A stretch of 64,000 nt of DNA from IMG/VR virus record IMGVR_UViG_3300028048_003198, positions 5,903-69,902 of that record; one strand, given 5' to 3'. A program made the position numbers and the translations under genes. The notes beneath the pieces were generated by a model that saw nothing but the letters and a program-made list of their open reading frames with translations, ran no database searches and was not told where the DNA came from. The stretch is from a virus (taxonomy: Duplodnaviria; Caudoviricetes). The first letter of the stretch is position 1. Every line of letters begins with the position of its first letter. Positions 16,623-42,970 of the stretch are shown one piece after another.

Positions 16623-16655
16623 TGTTTGATATTCAAACATTTTTTTGTAACTTTG
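16623..16655 (+). promoter_or_regulatory. portal promoter with palindromic operator TGTTTGATATTCAAACA over the -33 element
   Basis: TTTG 16625-16628, 19-nt spacer, TAACTTTG 16648-16655; palindrome 16623-16639. Confidence 0.8.
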
Positions 16656-23799: not shown

Positions 23800-23878
23800 T
23801 TTGAAAATTGAAGAATATAGTAGAAAAATAGACGAAAATAGTGAAAAAATGAAGAAAATCGCAATTTTTTGTCAAAAT

Positions 23879-23912
23879 TGTTTGGTAATTAAACAAAAAA
23901 GTTGTACCTTTG
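23879..23912 (+). promoter_or_regulatory. promoter with a degenerate operator (TGTTTGGTAATTAAACA)
   Basis: TTTG 23881-23884, 20-nt spacer, TACCTTTG 23905-23912; ATG only 4 nt downstream, so probably leaderless. Confidence 0.75.
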
Positions 23913-23916
23913 CAGC

Positions 23917-24363
23917 ATGAAAATTTTTACGTCGTATTTCGGCAACGTTGCAACGCTCAAGAAATGTGGTGTTCACCCTATCAGCATAGCGCGTTGGTCG
24001 CCGAGAGGTTGGGACGGTGACAGATTGACTTGGTTGGCTCCTACGGTCTATATGCTAAAGGAAGCATCTCACGAAGAGTACGTGAGGATGTATCAGGATA
24101 TCTGTCGAGGTGTGAACATTGAATGGCTTATTCGTCAACTGAGCATGATGGCTGGTGGAAAGGATGTAGCGCTTCTGTGCTATGAGCGTCCAAATGAGTT
24201 CTGTCATCGCCACATGCTTGCTGAGTACCTTACCGACCACGGAATTAAAGTCACAGAGTTTAATGAGTGGGAGTACGTTCAGCAGCAGGCCCAGGCGCAA
24301 TCGGCGGCTCCAACACCTCCACCGCCGGAGCGCAAGGAGCCTGAACAGTTGACCTTGTTTTAG
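23917..24363 (+). CDS. DUF488-family protein
   Basis: MKIFTSYFGN...ISIARWSP...LAPT...LLCYERPNEFCHRH. Confidence 0.7.
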   Translation: MKIFTSYFGNVATLKKCGVHPISIARWSPRGWDGDRLTWLAPTVYMLKEASHEEYVRMYQDICRGVNIEWLIRQLSMMAGGKDVALLCYERPNEFCHRHMLAEYLTDHGIKVTEFNEWEYVQQQAQAQSAAPTPPPPERKEPEQLTLF

Positions 24364-24441
24364 TCGAGGCGCATATCGGCTAACAGAGTGTGCGATCAAA
24401 ATACTTTCATAGAGAGATATAGGGCGATGCGCCGCCCGTCT

Positions 24442-24512
24442 GCGCGAACAGCATGGCGAACATGCGCTTACCTGCCGGGTAGGAGATGTGGGTTTAACTC
24501 CTGCTTCGCGCT
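24442..24512 (+). tRNA. divergent tRNA-Gly(GCC)-like element
   Basis: Acceptor GCGCGAA/TTCGCGC, D arm GCAT/ATGC, anticodon arm CTTAC-CTGCCGG-GTAGG, T arm GTGGG-TTTAACT-CCTGC, U73; non-canonical C8, D loop and T loop; no encoded CCA. Confidence 0.65.
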
Positions 24513-24598
24513 CAAGTCACGAGGCGCATCTTGTGAATAAGTAGTATCTGATTGAAATAGTATATGGGTGGAGGCAATGCGCTGCCGAAGCCCTATCT

Positions 24599-24671
24599 GC
24601 GGGGAAAGCATGACGAAACATGCGCGTCTCACACCCGAGACGAGAAGTTGGTGGAAGTCCAACTCCCCGCT
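24599..24671 (+). ncRNA. second tRNA-like cloverleaf with an aberrant anticodon loop
   Basis: Acceptor GCGGGGA/TCCCCGC, D arm GCATG-ACGAAA-CATGC, stem CGTCTC-ACACCC-GAGACG, T arm GTTGG-TGGAAGT-CCAAC, U73. Confidence 0.55.
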
Positions 24672-24686
24672 CTATTTTGAACAGAT

Positions 24687-26723
24687 ATGGAATTAGAACT
24701 TTTGCAAAGAACTTTCGGACTGGAGATAGAACTCTCCGATATGGATAAGTCGCAGGTAAAAATGCCGAGCGGCTATTCTTGGGATGAAGAAGAGGTTATC
24801 CATAATACGAACGGCACACGTGGTACCGTGACCTATCGCTATGGTGGTGAGATAAATACGCCTCCGCTGCTTCCGACCGAAGAGAGTTATGCCGAACTCC
24901 GATCCATCCTTGAGAGTTGCAAAGCAGCCGGAGCCATCGCGCGTCGCGACTGCGGTCTGCAAGTACACATCTATATCGGCGATCTGACAGTAGAAGAGGT
25001 AAAGCGTATCTATGCGCTTAGTTACTATTGTACGGATGTGCTCAAGCAGATTTGCTACCTGCCTCCGTATAGCGATGATCAGCGCTATCGCCCGGCACCG
25101 ACTATGGATATCTTCGAGCGCGCTATGCAGGCTGATAGTTTCGATGCTATGCGCCGTGTCTTTGAAAACTCCCAGAATAAAGGCTACGTCCGTCATTTTG
25201 TCAATGTAGCATCGTATTTCGTACGCAAGACGGTTGAGTTCCGTCTGTTCAATACGACTACAGACTGGGATGAGATGCAAGCCTGCATCGAGTTCGCGTA
25301 TCGCTTCGTGGATTACGCGCTTACGCACACGCTGGATGACTTTAAGTCTCTTTGTACCAGTGAAGTGTTTGAATATCAAACAAAAGTGCCGACAAACCTG
25401 CCGAAGCTGCCGGATTCTCTGATCTTCTTTAGCAGCGTTCGGGATATGGATAAAGGTATCACGATGCACGAGCAGGTGGACCTGAGCAGTTATTTCGTGA
25501 ACATGCTGTGCGAAAACAGCGGTCAAGAGATCGTCTGCGTCAATCCTCATATGTACTCACTTGAGACGAAGTTGAGCGCCTATAAGAAGATCGTTCTGTA
25601 TGTGAATGACGGTTTCCATCACACATTGTATAGAATAGTGCGCGAGGGCGTGCGCATATGCTATACAGGAAAAGCGGAGTTCTTGCAGGGCTTCAATGCG
25701 GACGATCCGGTTAAGCAGGTTGCGTGTCTGATGGTGTTCCATCGCATACGCAAGTTCCTGCGTGATGGCGAGTATTACGAGCAACGCCTCCAGTCGTACA
25801 AGGAGAGTCTGGTTTCGACGATGGAGAATGCGTATAGCGCATCAGAGCGCTTGGTTAAGATGCTTTCCGAAGCAGAGTACCACGTAGGCACACTGAACGA
25901 CGCTATAGCACGCGGTGGCGATATTTTCTTCCAGTTCGATGACTATTCGAAATACCGCAGTACGTTCAATTCTTTGCGCGAAAACTCGGATTTTGACGAG
26001 CAGTACGAGCGCATGGAAACAAACTATTACGAGGTGCAGAATAATCTGCCTAAAGGCACGAAATTGATGCTTGTGAGCACGTTCCCCTATCATAACATGG
26101 AGAAGATAGGAAAGATAGGCAGCAAGATCTTCTACTCGACGCAGCGCGCAAAGAGCGGAGTTATTCAGGATAGCAAGAAACCCGAGTTCCTGACATTCAA
26201 GGAGCCGCCCGATGATCTGGTTATCGATGATCCCGATAGACTGCATATTTGCAATGTAAAGAGCGGCGAACTGCTGAAAGCACAGAAGCAGTACGTAGTC
26301 AAGGTGGAGAAAGTGAGCGGATGCCGATTCGGCTACTTTGTGTTCTACGATGATTACCTGCTTGGTGGCTTCGGCTTCGACTATCCGAAAAACCAAGCGT
26401 ACGATATTTGGCTGCTGTCTGATTTCTCGACTAACAACCGCGTGCCGCGTCTGTCGAAACTCATCCTTTTATGCGTGAAGAGCGCGATGGTAAGACGTTC
26501 GCTATGCCGAAAGATGAGCAACGTAATCAATACGTGTTATACGAAAGTATATACGCATGAGCCTGTAAGTAGTAAGTATCGTGGTCCGTTCAAGAAAGTC
26601 AGCAGAGAGTCCAATCACCTGTTGTACGAAACGACACTCGGAACATTGGGTGGCAAGGATGAGATTATTGCGAAGTATAAACAAATCATAAACAATATGA
26701 ATCATGAGCAAAACAAATCCTAA
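24687..26723 (+). CDS. amidoligase (COOH-NH2 ligase) domain fused to an unassigned ~430-aa C-terminal region
   Basis: RTFGLEIE, GGEINTP, CGLQVHI, TVEFRLFNTT motifs in the N-terminal ~240 aa. Confidence 0.8.
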   Translation: MELELLQRTFGLEIELSDMDKSQVKMPSGYSWDEEEVIHNTNGTRGTVTYRYGGEINTPPLLPTEESYAELRSILESCKAAGAIARRDCGLQVHIYIGDLTVEEVKRIYALSYYCTDVLKQICYLPPYSDDQRYRPAPTMDIFERAMQADSFDAMRRVFENSQNKGYVRHFVNVASYFVRKTVEFRLFNTTTDWDEMQACIEFAYRFVDYALTHTLDDFKSLCTSEVFEYQTKVPTNLPKLPDSLIFFSSVRDMDKGITMHEQVDLSSYFVNMLCENSGQEIVCVNPHMYSLETKLSAYKKIVLYVNDGFHHTLYRIVREGVRICYTGKAEFLQGFNADDPVKQVACLMVFHRIRKFLRDGEYYEQRLQSYKESLVSTMENAYSASERLVKMLSEAEYHVGTLNDAIARGGDIFFQFDDYSKYRSTFNSLRENSDFDEQYERMETNYYEVQNNLPKGTKLMLVSTFPYHNMEKIGKIGSKIFYSTQRAKSGVIQDSKKPEFLTFKEPPDDLVIDDPDRLHICNVKSGELLKAQKQYVVKVEKVSGCRFGYFVFYDDYLLGGFGFDYPKNQAYDIWLLSDFSTNNRVPRLSKLILLCVKSAMVRRSLCRKMSNVINTCYTKVYTHEPVSSKYRGPFKKVSRESNHLLYETTLGTLGGKDEIIAKYKQIINNMNHEQNKS

Positions 26724-27426
26724 AGAGAGTCAAGTAGCGCCTCGGAAATGGAAGATCGCGGAAGTCGAAGTCACTCAGTTGGTAGAGACGGAGGTTAACG
26801 CGAATGAGATGACAGATGAGGAATACCAGCGCCTTGTAGAGAATGTCCGCATAACAGGTGGATTGAGCAGCGCGATATCGTGCTATCAGCGCGAGAGCGA
26901 TGGTAAGTTTGTCATCATCAATGGCAATCACCGCTTACGCGCTGCTATCGAGAATCGCCTGCGCGTCGTGCCTATCGTCTATGCAGACGAAAGCATGATG
27001 TCGAAAGACGAGAAGTTGGCTTTGCAGATTTCGCATAACTCGCTGCACGGAAGCCACAATCGCAGTATTTTGAAGCGCTTGTTTGATGAGATTCAGTCGA
27101 TCGATTTTAAGCAGGCTGCATTCATCGACGTTAGCGAGATAGAGCCGATCGACACATCCGGCGTAGGTTTTACGATGGAGAGCGAGCACTATTCCGTATC
27201 GCTTGTGCTGTACAGGAAAGACTTTGATCTGCTGAAAGACCTGCTTGGAGTGGTTGCGGAGAAGCAGCCTGTATCTGATCTGGTGATGCTGGCCGACGGA
27301 AAAGAGAATGAGGACGAGTATCTTAAACTGCTGTCCGCTATCCGTCAAAAGTACGATATACGTAGTGTGAACATCGCTTTCTCAAAGATTCTTGAGTTGG
27401 CAAAAAAACAGATGGCAAATGAATAA
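26704..27426 (+). CDS. ParB/Srx N-terminal domain protein
   Basis: NANEM...YQRLVENV...FVIINGNHRLRAA. Confidence 0.85.
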   Translation: MSKTNPKESQVAPRKWKIAEVEVTQLVETEVNANEMTDEEYQRLVENVRITGGLSSAISCYQRESDGKFVIINGNHRLRAAIENRLRVVPIVYADESMMSKDEKLALQISHNSLHGSHNRSILKRLFDEIQSIDFKQAAFIDVSEIEPIDTSGVGFTMESEHYSVSLVLYRKDFDLLKDLLGVVAEKQPVSDLVMLADGKENEDEYLKLLSAIRQKYDIRSVNIAFSKILELAKKQMANE

Positions 27427-28729
27427 GGTTACTATTGGTATATTGAGGGAAACGAAAATCCCAGTTGACAATCGCGTGCCGTTTACGCCCACGTCTATTG
27501 CTCGGATAAAGGAGTTATATCCGAACATCCGTTTTGTCGTAGAGTCGAGCGATGTACGCGCTTTTAAGGACGCAGAATACGAGGCTGTAGGCTGCGAGAT
27601 AGTTCGCGATCTGGTACCGTCTGCGTGCGACTTGATGTTTGGTGTTAAGGAGGTAGCCTTGGATCACCTGCATCCGTATGGTCATTATGTCTTCTTCTCG
27701 CATATCGCCAAGGAGCAGCCGTACAATCGTGAGTTGGCAAACCGTATGCACGAGTTAGGCATCACGCTTACCGATTATGAGTACCTTGTTAACCACGAGG
27801 GCAAGCGTATCGTTGCGTTCGGCTTCTGGGCTGGTGTGGTAGGTTGCTATAACACGCTGAGGCTTGCAGGCTTGAAGAGCAGAAAGTATACTCTGCCGGA
27901 AGCCAATCCGGACACGTTCACTCTTGACGAACTCGAAAAGGCTATCAAGGAGAATGCCAAGGCAATCAGAGAATCGCACATGCGCATCCTGATCACCGGA
28001 ACTGGTAATGTGTCCGAGGGCGCTCAATACGTACTGCATCAATTAGTAGGCATGATTAGCGTGCATGTAGATGTATTCAAGCATGTAGTTGACAGATTTG
28101 GCTCGTACTATGCTGTTGCCGGAACGAAAGACCTTGTGAAGAGTAAGTTCGGCGATGGCTATAAGCGTGAGTCGTTCCACTCACACCCAGAGCGGTACTG
28201 CAGCCGCTTCGATGAGTTTGCACCGAAGACAGATGTTCTGATCTGCTGTCATTCGTGGGAGCCTGGTATGCCGGAGTATCTTACGCCTGAACTTGCGTTC
28301 AGCGATAAGAGCGCCATCAAGATAGTCGGCGATATCACCTGCGATATCCGTGGAAGCATCTGCACTACGCTCCGGCCGTCCACACACGATGATCCGTTCT
28401 ATGGAGTACGAATGGAGAAAACAGTAAGACACACAGAAGGTGGTCTGGTCGAGGAAGAGCGTCGCCGCTTGGAAGAGTGTGCGGCATGGTGCCCTGACTG
28501 TATATCCGTGATGGCCGTCGATACGTGCCCGAACGCGATACCGAGAGAGTCAAGCGAAGATTTCTCGCATCAACTGGAGATGAGTATCGTGACATGGATG
28601 GCGCACAAGAATGATCCGGAGAATCCGTGCCGTTACGCGCAACAGCAGATAGATGACGCTACGATCTTACGCGAGGGTGTGGTAACGGAGAAATTCGCAT
28701 ATCTGGAGGACTTTGTATATAATGGCTAA
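27419..28729 (+). CDS. saccharopine dehydrogenase / lysine-ketoglutarate reductase-like oxidoreductase (AlaDh/PNT family)
   Basis: IGILRETK.P.DNRVP, GVKEV, FFSHIAKEQPYN, DYE, GFWAGVVG, GTGNVSEGA, DITCD..GSI, MAVDTCP. Confidence 0.88.
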   Translation: MNKVTIGILRETKIPVDNRVPFTPTSIARIKELYPNIRFVVESSDVRAFKDAEYEAVGCEIVRDLVPSACDLMFGVKEVALDHLHPYGHYVFFSHIAKEQPYNRELANRMHELGITLTDYEYLVNHEGKRIVAFGFWAGVVGCYNTLRLAGLKSRKYTLPEANPDTFTLDELEKAIKENAKAIRESHMRILITGTGNVSEGAQYVLHQLVGMISVHVDVFKHVVDRFGSYYAVAGTKDLVKSKFGDGYKRESFHSHPERYCSRFDEFAPKTDVLICCHSWEPGMPEYLTPELAFSDKSAIKIVGDITCDIRGSICTTLRPSTHDDPFYGVRMEKTVRHTEGGLVEEERRRLEECAAWCPDCISVMAVDTCPNAIPRESSEDFSHQLEMSIVTWMAHKNDPENPCRYAQQQIDDATILREGVVTEKFAYLEDFVYNG

Positions 28730-29222
28730 GAAGAATACAGATAGTACTAAGACTAAGGCGGTAGGCAAAAAGCCTGCTGCCAAGTCTGCTGCATCCAAGC
28801 CGAAAGCAAAGCGTAGGGAAACACCCGAACAGTTAGCAAAGCGCAAAGAGAAAGAGAGAAAGACAGTTGAAGCGCGCATCGCAGAGCAGAAGAAGTTGTT
28901 TCTGTCTATCTTCGAGAAGAAAGGTGGTAACCCTACATCATCGTGCATAGCTGCAGGCATAGGTCGCTCCACGTATTACGCATGGCTCGAAAGCGATAAA
29001 GAGTTTGCTGAGGCCGTGCATAATGTCAAGGAGTCGCTGATAGATATGGCAGAGTCCAAGTTGCTTGAGAGTATTCAGGGCGGCAATCTGACTGCAACCA
29101 TTTTCTATTTGAAGACGCAGGGCAAAGATCGTGGATATGTAGAGCGCACCGAGCAGGATGTAAACGTGAACGAGTTCATGGACGCTATGCGTGGGCTACC
29201 TGATCCACCGGAAGAGGTGTAA
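28722..29222 (+). CDS. terS: terminase small subunit
   Basis: HTH (AGIGRSTYYAW), DMAESKLL...ATIFYLKTQGKDRGYVER; directly precedes terL. Confidence 0.8.
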   Translation: MAKKNTDSTKTKAVGKKPAAKSAASKPKAKRRETPEQLAKRKEKERKTVEARIAEQKKLFLSIFEKKGGNPTSSCIAAGIGRSTYYAWLESDKEFAEAVHNVKESLIDMAESKLLESIQGGNLTATIFYLKTQGKDRGYVERTEQDVNVNEFMDAMRGLPDPPEEV

Positions 29223-29230
29223 AATGAGCA

Positions 29231-30751
29231 ATGGACGAACGACAGAAACTAAGAGCATGGATGAAGATTTGGCGAAAGGATTGGTGTCTCTTCGCCGAAC
29301 AGGTCTTGCATGCCAATTTGGATGATGAGCAGAAAGAGGTTCTGCGTTCGGTTCAGTATAACAGTCGTACGGCGGTAGCATCCGGTACATCGCGAGGAAA
29401 AGATTTCGTAGCAGCCGTTTGCGCCTTGTGCTTTCTCTACCTCACACCTCGATTCGATGAAAAAGGCAAGTTGGTGTCTAACACGAAAGTAGCGCTTACG
29501 GCACCGACAGATCGTCAGGTAGGCAATATCATGGTGCCGGAGTTCACGCGCCTATTCAAGGCTGCGAAGATACTGCCCGGCCGACTTGTAGCATACGACA
29601 TCCGTACCTCTCATAAAGAGTGGTTCTTGACAGGCTTTAAGGCTGGTGATGACGATACGGAAGCATGGTCCGGTTTCCACGCAGCCAATACGATGTTTGT
29701 CGTAACGGAGGCATCCGGTATATCCGAAAAGACGTTCGACGCTATTGAGGGTAACCTGCAGGGTAACTCGCGGCTGCTGATCGTGTTTAACCCGAATACT
29801 ACAACAGGCTATGCCGCGAAAGCGATGAAGTCAAGCCGTTTCGCCAAATTCCGTCTGAACTCGCTGAATGCTGCCAATGTGGTTGCGAAGAAAATCATCT
29901 ATCCGGGCCAAGTTGATTACGAGTGGGTGAAAGATAAGGTGGAAAACTGGTGCAGCAAGATTAAGATGACGGATATCGACGAGGGAGAAGGAGATTTTGA
30001 GTTTGAGGGGCAATGGTATCGCCCGAATGATCTTTTCCGTATTAAGGTACTTGGTAAGTTCCCGAAAGCAAGCCATGATGCCCTCATTCCGCAAGAGTGG
30101 ATCGAACTCGCGAACGAGCGATGGAAGAAACTCGTTGCTCAAGAGAATTTCGAGCATATCCGCATGTGTCGTTTGGGTGTCGATGTTGCAGGTATGGGTC
30201 GCGATAGCAGCGTGCTCTGTCCCCGGTATGGCAACTTTGTGGATGAGTTCGAGGTTCATCAGTCAGCAGGTAAAGCGGATCACATGCACGTAGCAGGCAT
30301 GATTGCGCGATATCTGCATTATGATAAATCTAAAGCGTTTATAGATACCATCGGTGAGGGTGCAGGCGTGTACTCGGCTCTTCTGGAAAAAGGCTTCCGC
30401 AATGGTTTCTCGTGTAAATTCTCGGAGAGTGCCAAGGACTTGAGCGATCTGACGGAGCAGTATGAGTTCGCGAACATGAAAGCGTATCTGTACTGGGCCG
30501 TGCGTGATTGGCTTGATCCGAAGAATGGTTTTGAGCCTGCGCTGCCGGAGTGTGACGAACTGATGGAAGAGGCTACCGAGATCAAGTGGCACTTCCAATC
30601 GAGCGGAGCGATAGCGATAGAGAAGAAAGAGGATATCATCAAGCGCCTCGGACGCTCTACTGACTATTTCGATGCGCTGGCCAATACGTTCTATCCCAAT
30701 GACGAGTCGATCCCGTTGGAGGACTTGGAGGCGTTCATAAATGGGCGATAA
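29231..30751 (+). CDS. terL: terminase large subunit
   Basis: SGTSRGKD Walker A, FVVTEASG Walker B, GVDVAGMGRD and DYFDALA nuclease acidic residues. Confidence 0.9.
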   Translation: MDERQKLRAWMKIWRKDWCLFAEQVLHANLDDEQKEVLRSVQYNSRTAVASGTSRGKDFVAAVCALCFLYLTPRFDEKGKLVSNTKVALTAPTDRQVGNIMVPEFTRLFKAAKILPGRLVAYDIRTSHKEWFLTGFKAGDDDTEAWSGFHAANTMFVVTEASGISEKTFDAIEGNLQGNSRLLIVFNPNTTTGYAAKAMKSSRFAKFRLNSLNAANVVAKKIIYPGQVDYEWVKDKVENWCSKIKMTDIDEGEGDFEFEGQWYRPNDLFRIKVLGKFPKASHDALIPQEWIELANERWKKLVAQENFEHIRMCRLGVDVAGMGRDSSVLCPRYGNFVDEFEVHQSAGKADHMHVAGMIARYLHYDKSKAFIDTIGEGAGVYSALLEKGFRNGFSCKFSESAKDLSDLTEQYEFANMKAYLYWAVRDWLDPKNGFEPALPECDELMEEATEIKWHFQSSGAIAIEKKEDIIKRLGRSTDYFDALANTFYPNDESIPLEDLEAFINGR

Positions 30752-42895: not shown

Positions 42896-42970
42896 AGCGC
42901 GATAGAGCAGCGGTAGCTCGCTGGATTCATCATCCGGAGGTCGCAGGTTCGAATCCTGCTCGCGCAACCA
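42896..42970 (+). tRNA. tRNA-Met(CAT), initiator-like
   Basis: A1:A72 mismatch, A11:U24, anticodon arm CTGGA-TTCATCA-TCCGG, GCAGG-TTCGAAT-CCTGC, encoded ACCA. Confidence 0.88.

What the first reader, a model, noticed from the sequence alone, without database searches (positions are those of the whole stretch)
23917..30751. Possible tRNA-dependent DNA hypermodification operon coupled to packaging
Seen: one operator-bearing promoter, then DUF488, the tRNA-Gly-like RNAs, an amidoligase fusion, ParB-like, SDH/LKR-like, terS and terL; the four ORFs from amidoligase to terS overlap end to start. Established: ParB-domain genes next to terminases often mark phage DNA-modification clusters; amidoligases make ATP-dependent amide bonds; from memory, the GNAT-fold Mu Mom enzyme was reported to use Gly-tRNA for adenine hypermodification (verify). 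Inference: the unassigned C-terminal region of 24687-26723 (YFVFYDDYLLGGFGFD...IWLLSDF...RLSKLIL; my impression is GNAT-like, unverified) transfers an amino-acid-derived group, built from glycyl-RNA and a lysine/2-oxoglutarate product, to DNA or another target. I do not recognise this gene and RNA combination as described.
Basis: inference. Interest (0 to 1): 0.82.

Follow-up and report, generated by a model that had tools for sequence, protein, structure and literature searches.

The report
Phage tRNA-fed DNA modification operon
A rumen Bacteroidales prophage carries, just ahead of its DNA-packaging genes, two odd glycine-type tRNAs and a three-domain enzyme whose last domain folds like phage Mu's Mom. 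This points to an untested pathway that puts tRNA-carried glycine on phage DNA and then decorates it further.

Summary
One Bacteroidetes-type promoter drives DUF488, two tandem tRNA-Gly-like RNAs, a fusion enzyme, a ParB-like protein, an LKR/saccharopine-dehydrogenase-like enzyme, terS and terL. The fusion has an amidoligase domain, a degenerate Dam-like domain and a GNAT domain.

It is a GNAT fold, and phage Mu Mom, a proven Gly-tRNA-dependent DNA modifier, is its nominal best structural match.

The decisive new evidence is comparative:
- About 76 of 105 related prophage loci carry a tRNA with invariant glycine identity nucleotides between DUF488 and the fusion gene. Its wobble base is free, and its anticodon, D or T loops are often non-canonical.
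- Chlorobi, Deltaproteobacteria, Bacillota and Chloroflexi loci show the same link, although they share only the DUF488, Dam-like/GNAT and ParB core.
- A sister cassette replaces the LKR-like enzyme with an unrelated octopine dehydrogenase. This suggests opine-type tailoring of an amine.

No chemistry is shown. About a quarter of loci lack the tRNA, and the similarity to Mom is in fold only.

Pfam already defines the protein domains. I found no paper describing the tRNA link. This scan has noted the same module several times on other DNA.

Verdict: a new variant of Mom-like tRNA-dependent DNA hypermodification.

The parts
23881..23912 (+). Bacteroidetes-type promoter (TTTG-N20-TACCTTTG) directly before the DUF488 start
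   Evidence: Pattern scan. Three sibling promoters with the same extended sequence lie at 16625, 37625 and 54300. Sequence seen.
23917..24363 (+). DUF488-N3a protein (148 aa) with a CyE...FCHRH core and a C-terminal QLTLF tail
   Evidence: PF22751 E 3.7e-8 and phrog_2450 E 1.3e-28. Present at this position in nearly all related loci. Alignment.
24364..24441 (+). Leader 1, with a GGCGCAT...ATGCGCC inverted repeat; conserved in L030 and L032 but absent in L095
   Evidence: Alignment A6. Folding is not better than shuffles (z -0.6).
24442..24514 (+). tRNA-Gly(GCC)-like RNA 1: G1-C72, C2-G71, G3-C70, U73, C35, C36. It lacks U8, G18G19 and T54-Psi55-C56.
   Evidence: ARAGORN; Rfam 34.3 bits; R1 56.8 bits. 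Identical copy in L030 and L032.
24515..24598 (+). Spacer/leader 2, a partial repeat of leader 1
   Evidence: No structure beyond shuffles.
24599..24673 (+). tRNA-Gly-like RNA 2: GCGGGGA/TCCCCGC acceptor stem, U73, and a 6-nt (or 8-nt) anticodon loop ACACCC. It cannot decode normally.
   Evidence: R1 44.3 bits, E 2e-8. Cloverleaf arms seen in the fold. The L030 copy shows compensatory T-stem changes.
24687..26723 (+). Three-domain fusion enzyme (678 aa)
   Evidence: Pfam. 61 full-length homologues with the same architecture. At least 493 viral contigs encode relatives.
24702..25307 (+). Amidoligase_2 domain (residues 6-207), with invariant acidic and arginine residues
   Evidence: PF12224 E 1.8e-16. 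Invariant E13, E15, E55, E184, R169 and R186 in A2.
25497..25910 (+). Degenerate Dam-like domain (Pfam match residues 271-408; fold spans about 260-450). It has no FxGxG SAM loop and no DPPY motif.
26235..26645 (+). GNAT-fold domain (residues 517-653) without the Q/RxxGxG/A CoA loop; invariant LLSDF.TNN..PRLSKL and PVSMKYRG motifs
26704..27426 (+). ParB-like protein (240 aa)
   Evidence: ParB_N E 6e-4, below the Pfam cut-off. phrog_7405 E 8.7e-52 and several ParB PHROGs. Always follows the fusion gene.
27419..28729 (+). LKR/saccharopine-dehydrogenase-like enzyme (AlaDh/PNT family)
   Evidence: AlaDh_PNT_N E 1e-18. AASS LKR domain 8dda E 3e-29 and yeast SDH E 6e-16. Residues aligned to yeast R18, K77, E78, H96, K99, E122 and R131 are kept.
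28722..29222 (+). Small terminase subunit; its ATG overlaps the LKR-like stop by 8 nt
   Evidence: phrog_4044 E 6.5e-12. Sequence.
29231..30751 (+). Large terminase subunit
   Evidence: phrog_2 E 2.6e-30. 87% identical to L030 and L032 terL.

Best explanation
This is a late-operon DNA-hypermodification module of a temperate Bacteroidales phage.

Inferred steps:
1. The two tRNA-Gly-like RNAs are transcribed with DUF488. They are matured and charged with glycine by the host GlyRS, because they keep exactly the glycine identity set.
2. They are poor translation substrates (degenerate elbow, one abnormal anticodon loop). They would therefore form a private glycyl-donor pool, like the non-proteogenic tRNA-Gly of Staphylococcus.
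3. The GNAT domain of the fusion enzyme takes glycine from the tRNA 3' end, as Mu Mom does. It puts it on a DNA base, most likely N6 of an adenine presented by the catalytically dead Dam-like domain.
4. The fused amidoligase domain, using ATP, and the LKR-like dehydrogenase then elaborate the free amine. The dehydrogenase would do this by reductive condensation with a 2-oxo acid such as 2-oxoglutarate. The product would be a bulky, charged amide or opine-type adduct.
5. The ParB-like protein loads or activates the enzyme on DNA.
6. DUF488 belongs to a sugar-phosphate-processing enzyme superfamily and has a clamp-motif-like tail. It services a tRNA or DNA end.
7. Expression together with terS and terL would place modification just before packaging.

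Shown here: the gene and RNA anatomy, the folds, the conserved residues and the co-occurrence. Every chemical step is inferred.
For: Anatomy and families.

Folds:
- No CoA pyrophosphate-loop motif.

The tRNA elements:
- In 36 unique elements, G1, C2, G3, C70, G71, C72, U73 and C35 are invariant and C36 nearly so. Position 34 is T, C, A or G.
- 17 of 22 stem pairs covary.
- These are the bacterial GlyRS determinants (PMC10464925).
- Every R1 hit of 49 bits or more in 54 loci (711 kb, both strands) lies on the + strand upstream of the fusion gene, between DUF488 and the fusion wherever DUF488 was found.
- 76 of 105 assessable loci, and 14 of 25 clusters at 70% identity, carry such an element.

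Cross-phylum link: the same DUF488 - tRNA-Gly-like - Dam-like/GNAT - ParB - terminase core occurs in Chlorobiaceae and Syntrophales, and tRNA-Gly also lies near the gene in Bacillota and Anaerolineae loci.

Redundancy with the host: a Muribaculaceae host already has GCC, CCC and TCC tRNA-Gly, and prophage copies include non-natural ACC anticodons.

Precedents:
- Mom transfers glycine from Gly-tRNA to N6-dA in dsDNA and accepts all isoacceptors (PMC13219725).
- Dedicated non-proteogenic tRNA-Gly serve FemXAB (PMC7826273).
- ParB activates phage DNA-modifying enzymes (PMC13229309).

Tailoring enzymes:
- LKR-like catalytic residues are conserved.
- The sister cassette has octopine dehydrogenase plus a Ddl-like ATP-grasp enzyme.
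- Other cassettes carry a racemase-like gene or acetyltransferases. All of these are amine/carboxylate chemistry.
Against: - No modified base, charged tRNA or enzyme activity has been observed.
- The similarity to Mom is structural only: hhalign probability 0.1, no PF25680 hit even at E 10, and Z within 1 of generic GNATs.
- 24 of 105 loci have no tRNA within 6 kb. Five have only other tRNAs (Lys, Asn, Met, Arg, Ser) at the same spot, which therefore also serves as an ordinary phage tRNA-array site.
- L002-L006 have a small ORF there instead.
- This window's two RNAs lack U8, G18G19 and Psi55-C56, so their processing and charging may be impaired.
- One related strain carries G3>T in copy 2.
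- The order and substrates of the amidoligase and LKR steps are guesses.
Confidence: 0.55

Rival explanations
1. The tRNA-Gly-like genes are ordinary phage tRNAs, or decayed ones, that happen to sit in the phage's tRNA-array site. They supplement translation and have no functional link to the neighbouring enzymes. The enzymes may still modify DNA using another donor, such as an acyl-CoA, an acyl-adenylate from the amidoligase, or host tRNA.
For: Some related loci carry Lys, Asn, Met, Arg, Ser, Cys, Phe or Ile tRNAs at the same position. 24 of 105 loci have no tRNA there. The window has other tRNA genes elsewhere, at 42896 and 43431.
Against: - The Gly-type element is the one nearly always present. 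The link persists across phyla that share only the enzyme core.
- Position 34 varies freely, including A34. 6-nt anticodon loops, A33 and non-canonical D and T loops are common. Only the GlyRS determinants are invariant.
- The host already has a full tRNA-Gly set.
- The GNAT domain lacks the CoA-loop motif.
Confidence: 0.17
2. The module acts on RNA or protein rather than on DNA. For example, the GNAT and amidoligase domains might modify the aminoacyl group on Gly-tRNA, as GNAT toxins do. Alternatively they might aminoacylate a phage or host protein, as L/F-transferase does. The tRNA-like RNAs would be substrates, decoys against tRNA-Gly-targeting host defences, or cofactors.
For: GNAT toxins often target Gly-tRNA-Gly (PMC9177977, abstract), and the toxSAS FaRel2 targets tRNA-Gly (PMC11559606, abstract). 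Other GNAT-fold enzymes use aa-tRNA on peptides, lipids and proteins (PMC13219725, Discussion). The DUF488 domain occurs in candidate defence systems.
Against: The GNAT domain is always fused to a Dam-like DNA-methylase-derived domain. It is always followed by ParB and the terminase genes. ParB partners are known for DNA-modifying enzymes (PMC13229309). Mom is the nominal best structural match.
Confidence: 0.13
3. The tRNA-like elements are cis-acting RNA-processing or stability signals (RNase P/Z punctuation) or attP remnants. They would separate the DUF488 message from the enzyme message and have no aminoacyl role.
For: They lie between two co-oriented genes in one operon. The RNAs of this window are structurally degenerate. 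An RNA-library contig bridges copy 2 and the fusion gene start, which is compatible with co-transcription.
Against: Punctuation or attP function does not require invariant C35, C36 and U73. The elements are full cloverleaves with covariation, are far from any integrase, and are often present in two to four copies.
Confidence: 0.07

Closest known systems
Phage Mu Mom (Pfam PF25680; PDB 8bv8; Silva et al. 2026, PMC13219725)
   Different: There is no detectable sequence relationship. Mom is a single-domain enzyme that uses host tRNA and needs no partners. Here the GNAT domain is fused to a dead Dam-like domain and an amidoligase. The phage brings its own tRNA-Gly-like genes, and DUF488, ParB and a dehydrogenase travel with it. 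The product is unknown and is probably larger than carbamoylmethyl.
FmhB/FemA/FemB with non-proteogenic tRNA-Gly in Staphylococcus aureus (PMC7826273)
   Same: GNAT-fold transferases use Gly-tRNA outside translation. Dedicated tRNA-Gly isoacceptors with altered D and T arms are kept away from EF-Tu and the ribosome.
   Different: The target there is a peptidoglycan precursor, not DNA. Fem enzymes have a double GNAT domain. The tRNAs are chromosomal, not phage-borne.
Computationally defined phage system behind Pfam PF22751 (DUF488-N3a), PF22555/PF22556 (DAM-like-phage1/2) and PF22559 (GNAT-phage-like); probably Burroughs & Aravind 2023, NAR Genom Bioinform lqad029 (not readable here)
   Same: These are the same protein domains. 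The window's proteins are members at significant E-values.
   Different: I could not read the source. So I cannot say whether the tRNA-Gly genes, the LKR/octopine-dehydrogenase alternation or a Mom-like mechanism were described there. From my memory of the abstract, DUF488 enzymes were predicted to process DNA ends in nucleic-acid-modifying systems.
Phage thymidine hypermodification and ParB-dependent 5mYOX systems (PMC8989533, PMC13229309)
   Same: Both involve post-replicative, multi-step attachment of amino-acid-derived groups to phage DNA bases. A ParB-like protein is a required activator of a DNA-modifying enzyme. Amidoligases are noted as unexplained neighbours.
   Different: The chemistry differs: 5-hmdU, a kinase, and amino acid:DNA transferases that use free amino acids. 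No tRNA and no GNAT are involved.
Saccharopine dehydrogenase (L-lysine-forming) and the LKR domain of AASS (PDB 2q99, 8dda)
   Same: The fold is shared. The aligned catalytic and 2-oxoglutarate-binding residues (yeast R18, K77, E78, H96, K99, E122, R131) are kept.
   Different: This is a phage gene translationally coupled to ParB and terS. In sister cassettes it is replaced by an unrelated octopine dehydrogenase. The amine substrate is unknown and probably not free lysine.

Membership tests
Mom protein family (PF25680) | Significant match to the Mom profile | tested here: not met
   Mu Mom hits PF25680 at E 2.4e-75. The window's C-terminal region gives no hit even at E 10. hhalign of A4 against Mom gives probability 0.1.
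Mom protein family (PF25680) | GNAT fold most similar to the Mom crystal structure | tested here: inconclusive
Mom protein family (PF25680) | Uses Gly-tRNA-Gly to modify N6-adenine in dsDNA | not testable with these tools
   Only indirect evidence: adjacent tRNA-Gly-like genes and the fused Dam-like domain.
GNAT superfamily | GNAT alpha/beta fold | tested here: met
GNAT superfamily | Q/R-x-x-G-x-G/A acyl-CoA pyrophosphate-binding loop | tested here: not met
   The A4 alignment shows LLSDF.TNN..PRLSKLIL after the central strand, with no glycine motif. This is read from sequence, not from a structure-based residue mapping.
Bacterial tRNA-Gly | GlyRS determinants G1-C72, C2-G71, U73, C35, C36 (PMC10464925) | tested here: met
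   Copy 1 has all of them, with a GCC anticodon. Copy 2 has the acceptor set and an ACC/CCC-containing loop. They are invariant across 36 related elements.
Bacterial tRNA-Gly | Canonical elongator core: U8, G18G19, U33, 7-nt anticodon loop, T54-Psi55-C56 | tested here: not met
   Both copies have CA or AA at positions 8-9, D loops GCGAA and ACGAAA, and T loops TTTAACT and TGGAAGT. Copy 2 has a 6-nt or 8-nt anticodon loop. Rfam scores copy 1 at only 34 bits and misses copy 2.
Bacterial tRNA-Gly | Is aminoacylated with glycine | not testable with these tools
   No charging data. RNA-library contigs cover parts of the region but do not prove transcription.
Dam-family N6-adenine DNA methyltransferase | Dam-like fold | tested here: met
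Dam-family N6-adenine DNA methyltransferase | SAM-binding FxGxG loop and catalytic DPPY motif | tested here: not met
   After strand 1 the family has VNP..Y..E with no glycine loop. At the DPPY position it has FFQ followed by variable residues.
Saccharopine dehydrogenase / LKR (AlaDh-PNT family) | Sequence membership and catalytic Lys/His plus substrate-binding Arg residues | tested here: met
   8dda E 3e-29 and 2q99 E 7e-16. Residues aligned to yeast R18, K77, E78, H96, K99, E122 and R131 are conserved (the residue roles are from memory of the yeast SDH literature).
Saccharopine dehydrogenase / LKR (AlaDh-PNT family) | Acts on lysine plus 2-oxoglutarate | not testable with these tools
   No NCBIfam equivalog is reached (alaDH 23 bits against a cut-off of 392).
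DUF488-N3a (PF22751) | Profile match above cut-off and the C.E...CHR core | tested here: met
   34.1 bits against a cut-off of 27. LLCYE....FCHRH is conserved in 27 homologues.
ParB/Srx N-terminal domain | Profile match | tested here: inconclusive
   ParB_N scores 20.2 bits, below the cut-off of 26.3. Eleven ParB-type PHROGs match, down to E 1e-14, and phrog_7405 matches at E 8.7e-52.
Amidoligase_2 (PF12224) | Profile match and conserved acidic/arginine residues | tested here: met
   61.2 bits against a cut-off of 22. E13, E15, E55, E184, R169 and R186 are invariant in 26 homologues.

The most novel reading that the evidence does not exclude
Phages of many bacterial phyla encode private, non-translational tRNA-Gly molecules. 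Their sole job would be to feed glycine to a Dam-like/GNAT enzyme that aminoacylates adenine in phage DNA. In this Bacteroidales lineage the glycyl amine would then be extended by an amidoligase and converted by an LKR-like enzyme into an opine-type (N-carboxyalkyl) adduct, a class of DNA base modification never observed. The interchangeable tailoring cassettes (LKR, octopine dehydrogenase, ATP-grasp, racemase, acetyltransferase) would form a combinatorial 'peptide-on-DNA' chemistry.
Probability: 0.3. Interest if true: 0.88.

Novelty: new variant of a known kind. Interest (0 to 1): 0.7.

Why it matters
Mom was until now a single known case of tRNA-dependent DNA modification. This module would show that the principle is widespread. 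At least 493 viral contigs encode relatives, and the GNAT domain falls into about 750 clusters at 50% identity.

It would also show that phages can carry dedicated tRNA donors for the reaction, and that the primary glycyl adduct can be built up by ligases and opine-forming dehydrogenases.

That would give three things:
- new hypermodified bases, relevant to restriction and CRISPR evasion and to nanopore or enzymatic tool development;
- a second natural example of non-proteogenic tRNAs;
- a direct functional handle on DUF488 and on orphan phage ParB proteins.

It is directly testable by expressing five genes and two RNAs.

Tried and rejected
- **DNA search in phage records.** Megablast of the region against 50,697 phage records gave no match. 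tblastn of the fusion found only partial, distant hits in Porphyromonas and Gordonia phages. No cultured close relative is available.
- **PDB sequence search.** A profile of the whole fusion gave no hit.
- **Mom by sequence.** Profile-profile comparison with Mom was not significant, so Mom family membership is rejected.
- **Source papers.** Burroughs & Aravind 2023, Iyer 2009 and Iyer 2013 are not held. Whether the tRNA link is published there remains open. Full-text searches found no paper combining these components.
- **Leaders.** The leader elements before each tRNA-like RNA fold no better than shuffles, so I do not claim a second structured RNA.
- **Rfam.** The weak Tymo_tRNA-like hit on copy 2 (17.9 bits against a gathering score of 40) is treated as chance.
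- **RNA runs.** Only short contigs from metatranscriptome libraries lie on parts of the operon. They cannot show transcription, ends or levels, and stretches without cover mean nothing.
- **PADLOC.** No defence-system assignment for the fusion or the dehydrogenase.
- **attP-remnant reading.** Rejected: the elements are full covarying cloverleaves, sit in the middle of the operon and occur in multiple copies.

Full report
**1. What is there**

The window is part of an IMG/VR provirus record of 69.9 kb. On the + strand a Bacteroidetes-type promoter (TTTG-N20-TACCTTTG, 23881-23912) ends 4 nt before the ATG at 23917. Three near-identical promoters lie elsewhere in the window.

After the promoter come:
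- DUF488-N3a, 23917-24363;
- a tRNA-Gly(GCC)-like gene, 24442-24514;
- a second tRNA-like gene, 24599-24673;
- a 678-aa fusion ORF, 24687-26723;
- a ParB-like ORF, 26704-27426;
- an AlaDh/PNT-family ORF, 27419-28729;
- terS, 28722-29222;
- terL, 29231-30751.

Contigs from two independent ruminant-gut studies bridge 23824-29094 at about 98% identity, so the arrangement is real.

**2. The proteins**

Pfam splits the fusion into Amidoligase_2 (E 1.8e-16), DAM-like-phage2 (E 1.1e-15) and GNAT-phage-like (E 7e-25).

*GNAT domain.* I folded the last 239 residues with 29 homologues (pLDDT 89.7).
- It is a GNAT fold. Foldseek gives E about 1e-4 to many acetyltransferases, with Mom 8bv8 at rank 13.
- There is no sequence relationship to Mom (hhalign probability 0.1; no PF25680 hit at E 10).
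- The family lacks the Q/RxxGxG/A CoA loop. It has invariant LLSDF.TNN..PRLSKL and PVSMKYRG motifs instead.

*Amidoligase domain.* It keeps invariant Glu and Arg residues.

*Dehydrogenase.* Its best PDB matches are the lysine-ketoglutarate reductase domain of AASS (E 3e-29) and yeast saccharopine dehydrogenase (E 6e-16). The residues aligned to yeast R18, K77, E78, H96, K99, E122 and R131 are all present. The roles of those residues are from my memory of the literature.

**3. The RNAs**

Copy 1 has G1-C72, C2-G71, G3-C70, U73 and a GCC anticodon. It lacks U8, G18G19 and the T-Psi-C sequence.

Copy 2 has the same acceptor features. Its anticodon arm is a 6-bp stem with the loop ACACCC. Only a model built from relatives detects it (R1, 44.3 bits, E 2e-8).

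**4. Comparative evidence**

*Synteny.* The fusion architecture is conserved in 61 proteins found by word search and in at least 493 viral contigs. It is mostly from Bacteroidales prophages, and Muribaculaceae are closest at 54% identity. In 109 fetched loci the order is DUF488 - (tRNAs) - (0-1.7 kb) - fusion - ParB - (tailoring gene) - terS - terL.

*tRNA co-occurrence.*
- ARAGORN and R1 find a Gly-type tRNA on the same strand between DUF488 and the fusion in 76 of 105 assessable loci.
- 5 loci have only other tRNAs there, and 24 have none within 6 kb.
- At 70% identity, 14 of 25 clusters are positive.
- Every R1 hit of 49 bits or more in 711 kb lies on the + strand upstream of the fusion gene, inside the DUF488-fusion interval wherever DUF488 was found.

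*Conservation pattern.* Across 36 unique elements, G1, C2, G3, C70, G71, C72, U73 and C35 are invariant and C36 nearly so. Position 34 is T, C, A or G, and 17 of 22 pairs covary. These are the bacterial GlyRS determinants (PMC10464925). Many elements have 6-nt anticodon loops, A33, D loops without GG, or T loops such as TGCRRRT.

*Host comparison.* A Muribaculaceae host already has canonical GCC, CCC and TCC tRNA-Gly genes.

*Other phyla.* The link extends well beyond Bacteroidales.
- Chlorobiaceae (L152) and Syntrophales (L112) prophages have DUF488-N3a, then a tRNA-Gly-like or mini-tRNA, then DAM-like-phage1 plus GNAT-phage-like, then ParB. A Pfam-confirmed terminase follows in L152.
- Bacillota and Anaerolineae loci carry tRNA-Gly next to the same two-domain enzyme.

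*Family size.* The GNAT domain family has 750 clusters at 50% identity, with two main lengths of about 450 and about 680 aa.

**5. Cassette structure**

The phage backbone nearest to the window is L030/L032/L095 (terL 87%, DUF488 81%, tRNA copy 1 identical). Yet its fusion enzyme is only 34% identical to the window's.

That cassette has an octopine/nopaline dehydrogenase between the tRNAs and the fusion, and a Ddl-like ATP-grasp enzyme after ParB. Homology to the window ends exactly at the 3' end of tRNA copy 2. A metatranscriptome contig shows the alternative junction at 24672.

So fusion + ParB + tailoring enzyme is the exchangeable unit, while DUF488 + tRNAs stay with the backbone and serve either cassette.

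All loci whose fusion is at least 45% identical to the window's carry the LKR-like enzyme. Other clades carry octopine dehydrogenase, ATP-grasp, racemase-like, acetyltransferase or DUF4417 genes. Two unrelated opine-forming dehydrogenase families in the same module point to reductive N-carboxyalkylation of an amine.

**6. Mechanism proposed (inferred)**

- The host GlyRS charges the phage tRNA-Gly-like RNAs.
- The GNAT domain transfers glycine to a DNA base, probably N6-adenine held by the Dam-like domain. Mom does this with host Gly-tRNA (PMC13219725).
- The amidoligase and the LKR-like enzyme then elaborate the amine.
- ParB activates or loads the enzyme, as shown for phage T-dioxygenases (PMC13229309).
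- The private tRNAs parallel the non-proteogenic tRNA-Gly used by Fem transferases (PMC7826273).
- DUF488 belongs to the rhodanese-phosphatase superfamily, whose members remove terminal phosphates from sugar substrates (PMC9503650). Its role here is unknown.

**7. Caveats**

- Nothing chemical is shown.
- The Mom link is fold-level only.
- A quarter of loci lack the tRNA. This is compatible with use of host tRNA, as in Mu, but it weakens any claim of obligatory coupling.
- The same spot hosts ordinary tRNA arrays in some phages.
- The window's RNAs are unusually degenerate.

**8. Novelty**

The protein domains are already Pfam families, probably from Burroughs & Aravind 2023, which I could not read. 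I found no held paper that links them to tRNA-Gly genes or to Mom-type chemistry.

Earlier notes from this scan describe the same module in other genomes and reach similar readings. I had reached mine before seeing them. From them I took only the PF25680 accession, which I tested.

I class this as a new variant of a known kind: Mom-like tRNA-dependent DNA hypermodification, here with dedicated tRNAs, a fused ligase and an LKR-type tailoring enzyme.

Noticed in passing
window 24346-24360 (last five codons of DUF488): After a variable Pro/Gln-rich linker, DUF488 ends in QLTLF. About 70 of 94 unique homologues end in [QE]x[ST]LF, sometimes followed by one to three more residues, and 18 match QxxLF exactly at the C-terminus. 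This resembles the bacterial sliding-clamp-binding motif QL[S/D]LF / QxxLF (PMC12309361) and would tether DUF488 to DnaN on DNA.
   Followed up: partly
window 24673-24686; L030:2295..., L032:4917...: This is a recombination junction. Homology to the closest phage backbone stops at the 3' end of tRNA-like copy 2. Beyond it the window has the LKR-type cassette, while L030 and L032 have the octopine-dehydrogenase-type cassette. A metatranscriptome contig carries the alternative junction.
   Followed up: yes
window 16625, 23881, 37625, 54300: Four promoters share the extended sequence TTTG(G/A)TA(A/T)T(T/C)AAACA...TTGTA.CTTTGCAG. They include a near-palindrome, TTTGATATTCAAA, that could be an operator for a common late regulator.
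   Followed up: partly
L052, L053, L054, L058, L099 (two-copy loci): Loci with two tRNA-Gly genes pair one copy with a canonical elbow (GG in the D loop, TTCGA T loop) with one non-canonical copy (D loop AGTTAGTA, T loop TGCRRRT, so position 55 is G). This suggests two functional classes.
   Followed up: partly
L112, L114, L115, L119, L125 (Deltaproteobacteria-type prophages): 68-nt mini tRNA-like elements with a reduced D arm have GCGGGGA...CCGC-U and an encoded CCA. They lie between DUF488 and the Dam-like/GNAT gene.
   Followed up: partly
L002:1489-1735 and the same place in L003-L006: In these relatives, a conserved ORF of about 80 aa (MKKTYNETYNEVIGELK...) fills the DUF488-fusion gap in place of tRNA genes. 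Its function is unknown.
   Followed up: no
window 24601: In one related strain (run X6) tRNA-like copy 2 carries G3>T, which would break the G3-C70 pair unless compensated. Among the differences the output listed (129 more were not shown), none falls in copy 1.
   Followed up: no
L058:9985-10761, L035:5280-6005: A DUF4417 gene (E 4e-32) appears as a further variable member of the module, either between terS and terL or upstream of the fusion gene.
   Followed up: no
window 28705-28709: A GGAGG Shine-Dalgarno-like sequence lies 12 nt before the terS ATG, inside the LKR-like gene. This is unusual for Bacteroidetes, which mostly lack SD-led initiation.
   Followed up: no
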